Assembly (NCBI RefSeq): GCF_964204865.1
Contig: NC_135256.1
Coordinates: forward strand, 19,220,001-19,284,000
Direction: 5' to 3'
DNA: 64,000 nt
Origin: Styela clava
Lineage: Eukaryota
Shown: positions 18,001 to 30,000 of the stretch, piece by piece
How the letters are laid out: each line of letters opens with the position of its first letter
Position numbering within the stretch: the first letter of the stretch is position 1
Position numbers: made by a program

Positions 18001-21000
18001 GAAAATTGCTGTTGCATCTTTGCCTCAAGTCTTAATCCTTGATTTTGCGTAATTTTGTGCTTTACACATACTGCAATTATGTCATAGCCAAAATTCGTGC
18101 TACTCAATTATACGAAATTCATGTTTGATAACATGAGTTCACATGCATATAGAATGCCGAAAAACTTTTACACTGCTACGGCACGATTTTTTAAAATAGT
18201 TTAGAAAGTTTTCCACTCTGAGATATTTTCGAACGGCGTTCGTCCGCTTTATATTCATAATCATCCAATTCCAGTTTTCTGCAATTGTTCTTTTTCAGTT
18301 TTCAACAGCGTTTATTCAAGTTTGTAAAATTTCGTTTTTTAAACGGCTTTTTAGATACGAGGAAAAAGAATATACTGCATCAGGTTCTCGTATATCCCTA
18401 AAAACATTCCCTTTGTTCACTCAAATGTTTGTGTATATTTTGCATAAATTCGTGACTCGGCGGGACTTACATTCAGAAATTCAAATCGTCTTTTAATACT
18501 ATTCTATTCTATACCTACATACTCTAATATGTGTATTTTAAAATTATAAAAAGTCATTTCTGATGACGTGATAAACAAAAAGCACTCGTGTTATCATATC
18601 ATAACTGAACGTTACCTCTTTCAACAATTCGTTAAAGTCATTAAGAACCTCAAGTTTGCCAATTGTTTGAAAAAGAACCCTTTCAGATCTCTCTTACCAG
18701 CAACAAACATTTTTATCGTGCGACCTTGATGATAAAACTTTTGTCAGATGAAAGAAAAATCCCACAGCATGCAAACTTATTTGCGGAGAGTAATGATAAA
18801 TAGACATCTCATGATTCACGTTCCAAAACAACCAACCACTTGTCTATTCGGATTACGTGAGGCTCATCGTTTGGTTCAAATGATTTACGGTCAGATACCA
18901 TGTCTTAATAATCTTCTGCTGAAAAAGCATTAAAACTTTTTCTAACAGTTTCTATCAGGTAAATATTAATAAAATATTCAAGTTTGCTTGTTTATTTAAA
19001 TGATAATGACTACAGGGCAAATTTTAATCAGTAACGTGGACGTGCTGACGTGAATGAAATAACCATCAGTGACAGCACATTTTTGCTGACGTTGTGGTAA
19101 CTGAGAACGCTCTTCCTATAGTCCGAAAGAATTGTTGCGAAGTTCTTTATTTTATTCAAACTCGCTGATATGATTCTAGCCAACTATATATTCTAGAAAA
19201 TGCAGTACTTTCTCAAGGCAGAGACCTATATCAGCTGTGATTTTAACAGTGTCCACTGACCAGGATTATGGTTGCCACAATACTCTCTTCGGGGCCATTA
19301 GGAGAAGCCCAAATATTTGCCCCCGGAACGGAATCATACAGTGTTGGGGAGACGCAAGTCACCTTTAATCAGCCCAAAACACACCAAAGATGAATAACTT
19401 AAAGTATATATATCAGCCAGTCTGTTTCAGGTATTTTATTGTCACTAAAATTACCTAATTTGATTGGTTTTAAATGCCACAATAACTACGTAAATTATGT
19501 GCTCAATACGATATAATTATAATATTAATTACTCCAATCGGTGGAAAATAATAACTCCGAGCAAAAATGCGATCCACGCCGTTGTGACTGCTTTTCTTTT
19601 ACTTCCTGCAATAAATAAATGAAATAATTAGATGTTTGTTTATTTTGACCAACCTCAAACTATAAGGTATTTTAAGTGGTCTCTACTATGAATATCTCAG
19701 CTAAGCAAAGCTGCACAAACAAATTGTTGCGAGGGAGAATGTGCTCTGGACCCTTGTGGGTCCACGAATCCCACTTGATTCAAATGTTAAATCCCGGCAA
19801 TTTATGAGACCAAATTGGTATGTATATTGCTAGCAACTATCAGCAGCAGTAATTGCATCAGTATAACTTATGAATCAATGAATACGGGATAAAAATAATT
19901 TTACTTTTGAATGGTTCCTGTTATATTCTGGAAGGATGTAAATAAATTCGCAAAAGGTTATACGGCATTAAATTTAAACAAAACAACAAATTTACAAGCT
20001 TCATTTTTTAATATATAGAAGATTGTTAGGTTATTATTATTGAATTTTTTATATTCGATTTTGATGATAACGAGGCCGGAATGAACTTTCTTTAAGCAAA
20101 GAGAAGTTGTCAAACTGAGTAAGGGACTTTTCTTATCAGGAACTGGTATCAAAATAAAAAAAATTAATTTCGGAACGGGATTGCGAGTCGGGCCAAATCA
20201 AATTTCGTCCGGTAGTCAGTATGCTTGTATTTAGAAAACATGGAACAGAAAAGCCAATCAAACGCATAATCAAATTTAATACCATTTGATATTTCACAAT
20301 TATGCTCATCTAAATTTCACTTACTGAATGAAACAACCTATTAAAATTAAATATTTTATGGCGTTAGTTCTATTGTTATTAGTTGATCTGTACTAAAAAC
20401 GAAACTAATCTGTACTGAGTAATCGTAAGCCAAAAGCAGACAGCCAAATGCAAAACAGGTTTCTCACCGTTTCCGCCGTCGTTATCATTACCACCATCAT
20501 CATCAAATATCAAAACCAGCGCGTTTGAAATGGTTTGCGGAGAAGATTCTTTGGTGGTGAGAGGAATCTCATCGTCGTCGTCATCCTCGACATCTTGGTT
20601 ATCACTATCATTCTTTGCTAAGTTAGCTCTAACAATAGAATCGTGCTGTAGAATTGATCTGTCAATATTATAATGGGTATATAAGTTATATATTATGTAA
20701 TACAGTAATTTGTTTTGTAACTTTAAGTTCCACATATTTTTCATGTATATAATAATTATTGAAATATTAGGAATAGATTCAAATAGATCAAATGAAGGCA
20801 ACAATAAATTATGGAATATTAAATGACTTATTAGCGATGTCTCATGACGAGAGCATGTCAGAACGAAAACATACACAACAACGCATTGTTGATGTATTAT
20901 ATGACGAAGAACATTGCAAGTACTGAAATGGCGTACCCAGTAGCAAAGCCGTTCACAAAATAAAACATTTACCTGTTGAAGACAGCTGATAGAATATTAC

Positions 21001-27000: not shown

Positions 27001-30000
27001 TCAATGAGTAGACATTGAACAATTTATTGATGTAACTCAAGCAGAAACATTTATTACCTTACTATTGGTGCATTGAGAGTTCTTGGTGGATTGTTAACAT
27101 TCCCAGTATCGCTTCTAATTCCGAGGTCTATTCCTAGCAGACCAACAGACCAGCGACCGTTACTTCCACGATATAAACCACCAATCCAAGCACCGCTAGC
27201 AAAGCTGTAAATGATACAAAAATGGAGGCTAATACCATAGAAGAGCACAATTTTTAGAAAATAATTCAACGCAGTTTTCTCAAACATCCGATATCATCCA
27301 TAGCACTCATAATAATTTATGAACTTAGTAACTGCTTGTCTTAAGTTACTGACATCTGCATGACAATTGTATTTTTTGCCATAATTGCTTTGACAGCAAG
27401 GAAGACGTCTTCAAAAACCATATGTTGAAATTGAATCAGTTTTGATGTAGAGAATGTGACAAAAAATCTAAACTTAAGATGTAACAACTATAATTGTTCA
27501 TAATGAGGCATATGAAAACTGCATTGTAACTTACATGATGTCAAAGTTCGATGACGATGTGATATTAGCGCGAAAGCTATTATAACCATACGCCCAATTT
27601 TCGTCAGGCTCATAAACAGTGCATTTGATTGCAGTAGAATGGGGGAAATCGTAACTAGATGCTCCATAAAGCGACCAACTTCCTCCATCATATGCTTCGA
27701 CTTGACTTAAAATCATACCGTCGTCGCACACTGGATTATTGGAGTCTCTTCTCCAACCAAGACGATAATTCATTTCAATCTATGAAAATAAGGAGGATGG
27801 AGAATGAGGACTTAATTTATTTAGGTAAAGATATAATATATTAAGGCAGGGGTCGGGAACCTTTTTGGTCAAGAGAGCCATGAAAGGTACATATTTTCAA
27901 TTGCATTTCCGCGCGAGCCATACAACAATTTTCATTACCTAATAATGTCTTGACTTTTTACTCAAAAGTCAACACATACAATGTCAATATATTTATTGCG
28001 ACTTTTGATGCTGCGTGTTGTCGCTCAGGGCCTCAAACGACTTCTCACATGCAGCACAAAGTGAAATCAACGATACTCATCACCTTTTCTTTTGAGCATC
28101 TCCGTAGTGCTTAAAAAATTAGATTCGCTGGTCCAACCTGAATATTACAAATAAACAGTAGGCCTACAAACTGACGGAATACCTTCCTTTATCGTCCCGC
28201 GACTATATCGCTTCGTAATATGTTCCAGAATCCCCTAGTTTGTCACAATGTCTGTCTGGTATTCTCTCGCATAATATAGACATGTCCAGGGCGCGAGTTC
28301 TCAAACGTATTGGCAAATTTTCTACCAAATTTGGCTATAAAAATGTTTGAAATCTGGTAACAATAGTAAGCTCAAAGTCTTAGAATATTTAATTTTTTTG
28401 GGAGCCATGGGTTCCCGTACTTCCTTCCCGTATACAATATTCTGTCTCCGCAATTTAGGTTGCGATCTATGCGTCTACCTCCAATCATGGTTTCCTGAAA
28501 ATAGAGCAAAATCTATGAAAATTAATTCTAACCTCATGATCATTTCCATTTGAGCTTATGAGCTTCCACGATGCTGTACCTCCACGAAAATGTGAACCTC
28601 CAACGACCGGGAGCGTTGTGCAAAGAATGGCGCACAAGATACCAGAAAGCATTGTATATTCTTCTAACATAAACAATTTAAAATAATATGTATTCTGCAA
28701 AATAAAAATGCTCGATATTAAGCGTGAATTAAGGCTCTTATCAATCAAATATCGCATGAATTCCGTTTCAGAAATTTCTATCTCATTTATCTTGAATATG
28801 TTTGAAAAGATGGTATTGATCTGACCCGTCCGATGGCACAGTTTGTAGAGCAGGATTGTTATTATCGAAGTTTTAAGATTTGTATCTCTGCCCTATTTTC
28901 AAGTGTTGCCTCCAAGATGACACAAAAAGACTGGAAGTTGCATAAAATTATATCAGAAATATACAGCTACATTTTGATATAAGCCAAAGCTCAAATCCCT
29001 CATTGTTCCATTCAGTTGATGGCAGCTGATGAGAGAAAAGTTGGATGCATTTTATTTTAAAATAATGCTAGATCACTTTTTAAATTTATATACAAATTCT
29101 ATGTTTTCAACGTTGCGCATTTTGGATTGCTAAGGAGTCAGGTATCTGTCTCAAAGACAACGCAAAGTGAACTAGAATAAATTTGTATCCCGGATTAATA
29201 TTGCCATTGAGGTATCAACTATACGTAATCCAACTGTAAAAAGAAAAAGTACTTGCCCCTTTTCTTATTCTGTTCTCGTTTTATTTCGAAAACTCGCGCA
29301 ACTCCTGTGTAATCATTAACGTTAACTTTTGAAATTCACTCAAGATGTTTCAAGCCCATCTCGCAGTCATGCTCAGTTTACAAATAATTTTACTTTCTTT
29401 TGTTTTATACCTTAACACCTTTTTGAAATTTTTTTTATGCGAAATAAACACATGGCAAATATTTACAATTTTAAATTTTGGAACAAAAAATTAAATGAAA
29501 ATATAGGAATAGCGGGCAATTGTTTTCAAGCTTTTTCAAATGATGAAATATTTTCATGCCACTGCAATTTTGGATAATTTTGATAGTATAATATATTTCC
29601 GGAAAGAAATTGGAATGAATGTACCAATAAATAATATTGTATTGTTGTCTTGAATACTAAGTAAGCTATGAGTTCATTTTATACATTGGCTCATAATATT
29701 ATTTTATAAATTAATCATTAGACCAATGTTACATATGAATTATATACTTCAACTTGACAGGTTTTCACCTCATAGTCGTTAGGAGGTAAAATTAGCGTAC
29801 TTATTGGTCGTGAATGAATCATTTTACTAAATTGTTGTTAATTTTTGTTACGATTCTTATTATTATTGTTGATGCTGTTCTTTCTCATTAATTCTGGATC
29901 AATCAATTTAAAATATTTCGTCTTAAAAATGGTATACACGTGGCTAAAAGCCAATTACTTTTTCTTAATTTTTTGCTTTTTCGTTTTAATTAAAGGGAAC

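What the first reader, a model, noticed from the sequence alone, without database searches (positions are those of the whole stretch)
20379..28652. Unusual architecture: Sib-like SHFRGG adhesion region fused to EGF-ZP with furin site and anchor-like tail
Seen: signal peptide; a ~370-aa region with SHFRGGTASW, RSDTGNVNNPP and DDDNDDVTCRYA..ECGDVC; EGF; ZP-N/ZP-C; RDKR split across the last splice junction; an acidic spacer; a hydrophobic C-terminus without a cytoplasmic tail. Established: ZP modules polymerise into extracellular filaments after furin cleavage. From memory the N-region resembles Dictyostelium Sib / invertebrate 'integrin beta-like' proteins; this needs confirming. Inference: a lineage-expanded family of filament-forming proteins displaying an adhesive domain (feeding-mucus net, tunic or egg coat). 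Best candidate here for an undescribed system.
Basis: partly seen in the sequence, partly recalled or inferred. Interest (0 to 1): 0.7.

Follow-up and report, generated by a model that had tools for sequence, protein, structure and literature searches.

The report
ZP-module matrix gene, unrecognised N-terminus
This is an intact 15-exon animal gene for a secreted protein that joins an unidentified front part and one EGF domain to a filament-forming ZP module with a furin site and an anchor-like tail. That is an ordinary kind of extracellular-matrix gene, and its front part could not be identified here.

Summary
On the minus strand, 28652-20379, a 15-exon model has GT-AG at all 14 introns, matching phases and 2373 coding bases, i.e. 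790 codons plus stop. It encodes:
- a signal peptide followed by SHFRGG;
- about 360 residues that no library recognises exon by exon;
- one EGF-like domain (Pfam 2.3e-5);
- a ZP module, with ZP-C on two consecutive exons (1.1e-4 and 0.013);
- RDKR split across the last junction, an acidic stretch and a hydrophobic end with no cytosolic tail.

The ZP-precursor reading fits. The Sib likeness has no support: no VWA domain, no transmembrane segment followed by a tail, and no NPXY were found. No Sib sequence was available to compare.

The "expanded family" in this window amounts to three things: the intact gene, a 5'-truncated copy of exons 5-15 with two frameshifts, and one paralogous first exon at the window's left edge.

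The spliced protein was not joined or searched. Exon-wise searches also missed ZP-N, so the silence over the N-region does not show novelty. Interest is modest.

The parts
20379..28652 (-). Whole coding span of the gene (15 exons, 790 codons plus stop)
   Evidence: 14 of 14 introns are GT-AG, phases are consistent, total 2373 nt.
28533..28652 (-). Exon 1: ATG, signal-peptide-like leader, then SHFRGGTASW
   Evidence: hydropathy. The same leader followed by SHFRGGT.SW occurs in the paralogous exon at the left edge.
27535..27779 (-). Exon 2: largest N-region exon (81 whole codons), unrecognised
   Evidence: No significant hit in Pfam, NCBIfam, PDB, the Atlas or plasmids. AF2 single-sequence model has pLDDT 43.7.
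27058..27204 (-). Exon 3: ends with ...RSDTGNVNNPP...
   Evidence: No Pfam or NCBIfam hit.
26839..26977 (-). Exon 4: acidic cluster DDDNDD and four cysteines
   Evidence: PDB gave 1 chance-level hit.
24286..24445 (-). Exon 5, after the 2393-nt intron 4. Gly run, then a Y-x-V-A-I...E-D strand-like stretch
   Evidence: Weak sub-significant PDB matches to desmoglein-2 / desmocollin-desmoglein chains (3 of 7 rows, E=0.62-0.64).
24076..24211 (-). Exon 6: N-region
   Evidence: No hits.
23607..23762 (-). Exon 7: N-region
   Evidence: PDB gave 0 hits at E<=10.
23491..23531 (-). Exon 8: 41-nt exon closing the N-region
   Evidence: read by eye: a canonical CAG acceptor and a GTGAGT donor. Too short (13 aa) for the libraries.
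23265..23393 (-). Exon 9: one EGF-like domain (7 Cys)
   Evidence: Pfam FXa_inhibition E=2.3e-5, profile 1-36 of 36. Cys count.
22673..22851 (-). Exon 10: presumed ZP-N (4 Cys)
   Evidence: Cysteine pattern only. No Pfam or PDB hit. AF2 pLDDT 43.2.
22087..22344 (-). Exon 11: presumed end of ZP-N, the linker and the start of ZP-C
   Evidence: Position between exons 10 and 12. No significant hit.
21667..21839 (-). Exon 12: ZP-C, first part
   Evidence: Pfam PF00100 E=1.1e-4, profile 21-72 of 133. Weak PDB match to choriogenin H, E=0.78.
21265..21394 (-). Exon 13: ZP-C, second part
   Evidence: Pfam PF00100 E=0.013, profile 76-117 of 133.
21107..21186 (-). Exon 14: four-cysteine end of ZP-C, ending ...FRDK plus two bases
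20379..20658 (-). Exon 15: completes RDKR, then an acidic stretch, a short hydrophobic patch, a G/N/D-rich stretch, a hydrophobic end and TAA
   Evidence: ATTAAA lies about 100 nt downstream, at 20280.
12338..17520 (-). Partial duplicate: part of intron 4 plus exons 5-15, with no exons 1-4 and with two frameshifting indels
   Evidence: 94.6-98.1% identity; 21 mismatches in 1722 exon nt; an indel in 2 of 11 exons.
1..120 (-). First exon of a paralogue that runs off the left edge: ATG, leader, SHFRGGTVSW
   Evidence: 59% identity over 32 aa, E=1.7e-8; translation.

Best explanation
This is one animal gene for a precursor of an extracellular ZP-module matrix protein.

Shown:
- a leader peptide;
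- a mature N-terminus conserved between two paralogues (SHFRGGT.SW);
- about 360 residues unrecognised by any library exon by exon;
- one EGF-like domain;
- ZP-C;
- a dibasic R-x-K-R site directly after ZP-C;
- an acidic propeptide and a hydrophobic C-terminus with nothing behind it.

Inferred from established knowledge of uromodulin, tectorin and ZP3-type precursors:
- The precursor is held at the membrane by the C-terminal hydrophobic segment. This segment is most likely exchanged for a GPI anchor at the G/N/D-rich stretch before it.
- A furin-like convertase cuts at RDKR. The C-terminal propeptide, with its blocking hydrophobic patch, leaves.
- The ZP module then polymerises into filaments that carry the EGF domain and the N-region on their outside.

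Inferred from motifs only:
- The N-region is a string of three beta-rich modules.
- The middle module looks cadherin-like, from an N-x-P-P linker, an A-x-D-D-D-N-D-D cluster and a G-Y-x-V-A-I...E-D strand.

The tissue and the ligand are unknown.
For: - Gene model: 14 of 14 introns GT-AG, phases consistent, 2373 nt.
- Leader and tail hydropathy, and 18 acidic residues among the first 66 of exon 15.
- EGF-like hit at 2.3e-5, and ZP-C on two consecutive exons at consecutive profile positions 21-72 and 76-117 of 133.
- RDKR across the last junction.
- The intron between the N-region and the EGF exon is 97 nt and phase-compatible, and exon 9 has no start of its own.
- Conserved leader plus SHFRGG in a second gene.
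- Furin cleavage and hydrophobic patches as regulators of ZP polymerisation, and GPI-anchored uromodulin: passages of PMC13361971 and PMC3543715.
- EGF followed by ZP is frequent in urochordate and mollusc ZP proteins: passages of PMC9265791, PMC3543715 and PMC9290575.
- Weak cadherin hint: 3 of 7 PDB rows for exon 5 are desmosomal cadherins at E=0.62-0.64.
Against: - Both Pfam ZP-C scores (22.7 and 16.0 bits) lie under the 24.6-bit cut-off, as expected for halves of a domain.
- ZP-N has no hit at all: Pfam, PDB, and an AF2 model at pLDDT 43.2.
- No solved ZP protein was matched significantly. The best is choriogenin H at E=0.78. Exon 11 gave 3 unrelated rows.
- The hydrophobic end is interrupted by Q-Y-R, and no GPI predictor was available.
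- A fair donor site inside exon 15, just after the G/N/D-rich stretch, could give another C-terminus.
- The cadherin-like reading failed every formal test: no Pfam cadherin-type hit in 7 of 7 N-region exons searched, and the desmoglein matches are not significant.
- There is no transcript evidence of any kind.
Confidence: 0.6

Rival explanations
1. One reading: the N-region is homologous to the ectodomain of Dictyostelium Sib proteins (and to invertebrate proteins labelled 'integrin beta-like'). The gene would then be a Sib-type adhesion domain fused to a ZP module.
For: - Only indirect. An acidic D-rich cluster and an N-x-P-P motif of the kind seen in calcium-binding beta-sandwich repeats.
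- The label 'integrin beta-like protein A' does occur in invertebrate annotations: 2 papers, seen in the search listing only.
Against: - No VWA hit in any exon.
- No transmembrane segment followed by a cytosolic tail, and no NPXY in exon 15.
- No internal repeats among the exons; the best exon-to-exon E is 0.26.
- No convincing bacterial relative of exon 2. Two of 54 candidate stretches passed, and both lie in off-frame or antisense ORFs of high-GC genomes. The plasmid tblastn best is E=0.5.
- 0 papers hold both 'integrin beta-like protein' and 'zona pellucida'.
- No Sib sequence was available for a direct comparison.
Confidence: 0.12
2. The protein is not a filament former. It stays on the cell surface as a GPI- or membrane-tethered ZP-module adhesion or co-receptor molecule, in the manner of endoglin or betaglycan.
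For: - The hydrophobic C-terminus.
- A passage of PMC13361971 states that furin sites and hydrophobic patches vary among ZP proteins.
- A passage of PMC9290575 argues that mollusc EGFZP proteins mostly remain at the cell surface despite a furin site.
Against: - A clean R-x-K-R site sits exactly between ZP-C and the tail, followed by a propeptide-like acidic stretch.
- There is no cytosolic tail.
Confidence: 0.13
3. The model is not one expressed gene. Either two neighbouring genes have been merged, or the locus is an untranscribed relic in a region of recent segmental duplication.
For: - The region is a nest of recent duplications, with a truncated, frameshifted second copy.
- In the 9 indel-free exons, 11 of 12 changed codons between the copies are non-synonymous.
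- No transcript data are available.
Against: - All 15 exons of this copy are open and in phase.
- The intron at the proposed boundary is only 97 nt.
- Exon 8 has no stop, and exon 9 has no ATG or leader.
- Exon divergence between the copies is lower than non-coding divergence: 21 of 1722 against 125 of 4472.
Confidence: 0.1

Closest known systems
Uromodulin / tectorin-type GPI-anchored ZP precursors (vertebrates)
   Same: - Leader, EGF-type domain ahead of the ZP module, and ZP-C.
- A convertase site after ZP-C.
- A C-terminal hydrophobic segment without a cytosolic tail (architecture of uromodulin and alpha-tectorin from a figure legend of PMC13361971).
   Different: - Only one EGF-like domain.
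- The N-region has 10 cysteines in about 360 residues and no hit to any library model.
- No solved uromodulin or other ZP chain came back significantly for exons 10, 11 or 12.
- It is therefore not shown to be an orthologue of uromodulin or OIT3.
Urochordate egg-coat EGF-ZP proteins (CiVC57, HrVC70/VC120, HrVLP-1/-2)
   Same: Signal peptide, EGF-like repeat(s) and a ZP domain. HrVLP-2 is described as having one EGF-like repeat (passages of PMC9265791; PMC3543715).
   Different: - Those proteins are described without a large non-EGF N-region. [quoted passage not shown]
Mollusc EGFZP shell-matrix proteins (LUSP-17, PfuEGFZP)
   Same: - Signal peptide, EGF-like domains, ZP domain, furin-type site, and a hydrophobic C-terminal segment.
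- Tandem and partial gene duplication at the locus (passages of PMC9290575).
   Different: - Two EGF domains directly after the signal peptide, and a transmembrane domain.
- No 360-residue N-region.
Dictyostelium Sib proteins (SibA-E)
   Same: At most a calcium-binding-repeat flavour of the N-region (acidic cluster, N-x-P-P), read from the sequence only.
   Different: [quoted passage not shown] None of these is present here.

Membership tests
ZP-module precursor proteins | ZP-C domain | tested here: met
   Pfam PF00100 on exon 12 (E=1.1e-4, profile 21-72 of 133) and exon 13 (E=0.013, profile 76-117 of 133). The positions are consecutive and in order. Each half scores under the 24.6-bit whole-domain cut-off.
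ZP-module precursor proteins | ZP-N domain with four conserved cysteines | tested here: inconclusive
   Exon 10 has 4 Cys in a suitable position. There is no Pfam hit, no PDB hit at E<=10, and the AF2 model has pLDDT 43.2.
ZP-module precursor proteins | N-terminal signal peptide | tested here: met
   Hydrophobic leader by Kyte-Doolittle windows, with small residues before SHFRGG. No dedicated predictor was available.
ZP-module precursor proteins | Consensus furin-type site after ZP-C | tested here: met
   R-D-K-R read across the exon 14 / exon 15 junction.
ZP-module precursor proteins | External hydrophobic patch between the cleavage site and the anchor | tested here: inconclusive
   There are two candidates in exon 15: the first 9 residues (mean hydropathy 0.58) and a patch at residues 42-48 (up to 2.34). 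No structural test was possible.
ZP-module precursor proteins | C-terminal transmembrane segment or GPI signal | tested here: inconclusive
   A G/N/D-rich stretch is followed by about 28 residues with two hydrophobic stretches split by Q-Y-R, with no tail behind.
Dictyostelium Sib family | Extracellular VWA domain | tested here: not met
   No VWA hit in any exon or stop-free segment. Caveat: exon-wise searches are weak. The feature is taken from passages of PMC9197732 and PMC3279395.
Dictyostelium Sib family | Glycine-rich transmembrane domain followed by a cytosolic tail with NPXY that binds talin | tested here: not met
   The protein ends in its hydrophobic segment, and exon 15 contains no N-P-x-Y.
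Dictyostelium Sib family | Sequence similarity of the ectodomain | not testable with these tools
   No Sib sequence or structure was returned by any search.
Uromodulin / OIT3 | Several EGF domains plus a cysteine-rich D8C domain ahead of the ZP module (recalled definition) | tested here: not met
   One EGF-like hit only. No D8C or other hit in the N-region. The N-region has 10 Cys in about 360 residues.
Cadherin-like (cadherin / dystroglycan-type) domains | Match to a cadherin-type profile or structure | tested here: inconclusive
   No Pfam hit. PDB exon 5 gave desmoglein-2 and a desmocollin-desmoglein chain at E=0.62-0.64, not significant. The motifs (N-x-P-P, A-x-D-D-D, Y-x-V-A-I..E-D) are recognised from memory only.

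The most novel reading that the evidence does not exclude
The roughly 360-residue N-region could be an extracellular domain family that no library yet describes. It begins at a conserved mature N-terminus, SHFRGGT.SW, shared by at least two neighbouring genes. It would have been recruited in one animal lineage onto a polymerising ZP module, giving filaments that display a new binding surface.
Probability: 0.25. Interest if true: 0.5.

Novelty: new member of a known kind. Interest (0 to 1): 0.3.

Why it matters
ZP-module proteins build egg coats and apical matrices. Their N-terminal additions decide what the filament binds. If the N-region proved to be an undescribed domain, it would add a new display module to this toolkit. 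It would also give a handle on a lineage-specific matrix, whether egg coat, tunic or mucus.

As it stands, the finding is a well-formed but ordinary ZP precursor gene. It lies in a recently duplicated region, and that region is a small example of partial tandem duplication producing truncated ZP gene copies.

Tried and rejected
Exon-wise searches of the N-region that found nothing:
- Pfam at E<=1 and E<=10: none of the 7 N-region exons gave a meaningful hit; the two hits seen were chance-level, DUF5348 at 0.098 on exon 5 and Glyco_hydro_65N at 0.086 on the exon 1 segment.
- NCBIfam: 0 of 7 exons.
- PDB phmmer on exons 2, 4, 5 and 7: nothing below E=0.15.
- ESM Atlas on exon 2 and exon 11: no usable hit.
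- tblastn of exon 2 against plasmids: best E=0.5.
- Scan of bacterial and archaeal genomes with exon 2: 2 of 54 candidate stretches passed. I rejected both, because the matching frames are an implausible ORF and the antisense of a 1436-aa ORF in high-GC DNA.

Structure:
- AF2 single-exon models of exon 2 (pLDDT 43.7) and exon 10 (43.2) were too poor for a fold search, so none was run.

Gene model alternatives:
- I rejected a 34-nt candidate exon at 27387-27354, because exon 2 joins exon 3 directly with better sites.
- An alternative exon 3 / exon 4 junction (27063 / 26970) stays possible. It would change three residues.
- I looked for other paralogues in the window at E<=10 and found none beyond copy A and the left-edge exon.

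Other checks:
- Internal repeats among the exons: none.
- Paper searches for SHFRGG/HFRGG: 4 papers, all on unrelated RGG motifs, judged from the listing.
- A bacterial promoter/terminator scan upstream is uninformative for this eukaryotic gene: 5 found against 4.3 expected.
- No tandem repeats in 19000-29500.
- Three look-ups of the primary Sib papers failed because they are not held.

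
Full report
**Setting.** The window has 64000 bases and no N. GC is 0.32-0.41. There is no Rfam family at gathering score and no tRNA. It is eukaryotic, spliced DNA, and I did not take it for human. Neighbouring genes are an L24e/RLP24-like ORF, an Rdx/SelT-like gene and a non-LTR reverse transcriptase. The organism cannot be named with the tools that were open.

**The observation.** The gene lies on the minus strand. I took the stop-free segments and a list of candidate splice sites, and read the sequence itself. 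This gave a 15-exon model from the ATG at 28652 to the TAA at 20381-20379.
- All 14 introns are GT-AG and the phases fit.
- The exons sum to 2373 nt, which is 790 codons plus stop.
- Intron lengths are 74-753 nt, except intron 4, which is 2393 nt.
These are the leader and SHFRGGTASW in exon 1, RSDTGNVNNPP in exon 3 and DDDNDDVTCRYA...ECGDVC in exon 4, and an EGF-like exon 9 (Pfam FXa_inhibition, E=2.3e-5). They also include ZP-C on exons 12 and 13 at consecutive profile positions (21-72 and 76-117 of 133; E=1.1e-4 and 0.013).
- The C-terminal items are present too. RDKR has its last Arg codon split by the last intron. An acidic stretch has 14 D and 4 E in 66 residues. The end is hydrophobic, with no cytosolic tail behind it.
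- ZP-N rests only on the four cysteines of exon 10.

**How the searches were done and what that leaves open.** The spliced protein was not assembled. Every library, PDB, Atlas and structure query was a single exon, and the joined step was left out. This costs power, and the data show how much. The ZP-C domain was found only as two sub-threshold halves, and ZP-N was not found at all. A negative result for a domain that is split by introns is therefore weak evidence of absence.

**The N-region (exons 1-8, about 360 residues after the leader).** Nothing recognises it exon by exon.
- Pfam gave no meaningful hit for 7 of 7 exons searched.
- NCBIfam gave 0 of 7.
- PDB gave nothing below E=0.15 for exons 2, 4, 5 and 7.
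- The Atlas gave no usable hit for exon 2.
- The plasmid tblastn best was E=0.5.
- The bacterial genome scan returned two spurious loci.
- The AF2 model of exon 2 had pLDDT 43.7.
- The exons show no internal repeats.

Reading the sequence directly, and comparing it with my own recollection of cadherin-type domains, I see three things:
- an N-x-P-P linker at the end of exon 3;
- an A-x-D-D-D-N-D-D cluster in exon 4;
- a G-Y-Y-x-V-A-I...E-D strand in exon 5.

The only tool result pointing the same way is a non-significant match of that strand to desmoglein-2 (E=0.62). I therefore describe the N-region as probably three beta-rich modules with a cadherin-like middle one. This is an inference, not a result.

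[quoted passage not shown] None of these is here. A direct comparison with a Sib ectodomain could not be made. No Sib sequence came back from any search, and the primary papers are not held. The label 'integrin beta-like protein A' does exist in invertebrate annotation (2 papers, listing only). No paper holds that label together with 'zona pellucida'.

**One gene or two.** Exon 8 has no stop, and exon 9 has no ATG or leader. This favours one transcription unit, but only transcripts can settle it.

**Family and surroundings.**
- The block 19242-25465 is repeated at 11212-17520 with 94.6-98.1% identity. It holds the 3' flank, exons 15-5 and part of intron 4.
- That second copy has no exons 1-4. 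Ten of 16 segments have a second copy, and the six N-terminal segments do not.
- Two of its eleven exons each carry one frameshifting indel.
- It differs at 21 of 1722 exon positions against 125 of 4472 non-coding positions.
- In the nine indel-free exons, 11 of 12 changed codons are non-synonymous and none is a stop. It looks like a decaying partial duplicate.
- At the left edge of the window (about 120-1, minus strand) lies the first exon of a true paralogue: ATG, leader, then SHFRGGTVSW. It is 59% identical over 32 residues.
- No other paralogue is in the window.

**Mechanism.** The shown features fit the standard ZP precursor route, as given in passages of PMC13361971 and PMC3543715:
1. 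secretion;
2. tethering by the C-terminal hydrophobic segment, or by a GPI anchor that replaces it;
3. convertase cleavage at RDKR;
4. loss of the propeptide;
5. polymerisation through the ZP module.

EGF followed by ZP is a common arrangement in urochordate egg-coat proteins and in mollusc shell-matrix proteins. What differs here is the large unrecognised N-region ahead of a single EGF domain.

**Verdict.** This is a real, intact and ordinary kind of gene, a new member of the ZP-module matrix proteins. The Sib likeness is unsupported. The novelty of the N-region is neither shown nor excluded.

Noticed in passing
window 46189-46780, minus strand: A SelT-like (Pfam Rdx, E=1.2e-11) gene in one long open stretch. 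It has an in-frame TGA inside a C-x-x-TGA motif just upstream of the Rdx match, which is probably a selenocysteine codon. The Rfam gathering scan found no SECIS element.
   Followed up: partly
window 43894-44397, plus strand: A single-exon ORF with a ribosomal L24e domain (E=1.4e-32) and a long basic tail, like RLP24.
   Followed up: partly
window 61719-63998, minus strand: A non-LTR retrotransposon reverse transcriptase (Pfam RVT_1, E=4.4e-30) that runs off the right edge of the window. The frame is interrupted once in the part seen. It was not studied further.
   Followed up: no
window 3051-11800 and 17519-19830: The roughly 2.3-2.5 kb non-coding unit that lies downstream of the ZP gene occurs four times at 91-96% identity. 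Two of these copies have no gene attached. The region is a nest of tandem segmental duplications.
   Followed up: partly
window 47947-49789 versus 54460-52729: An inverted duplication at 94-95% identity, with internal short tandem repeats. Long low-complexity open stretches there have no Pfam hit.
   Followed up: no
window 28694-28653, minus strand: A good acceptor-like site (pyrimidine run followed by CAG) lies 42 nt upstream of the ATG. It could mark an upstream non-coding exon or a trans-splice acceptor. This is untested.
   Followed up: no
window 20468, minus strand, inside exon 15: A fair donor site (7 of 9 matches to the consensus) lies just after the G/N/D-rich stretch. It could give an alternative C-terminus. 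No downstream exon was identified.
   Followed up: no
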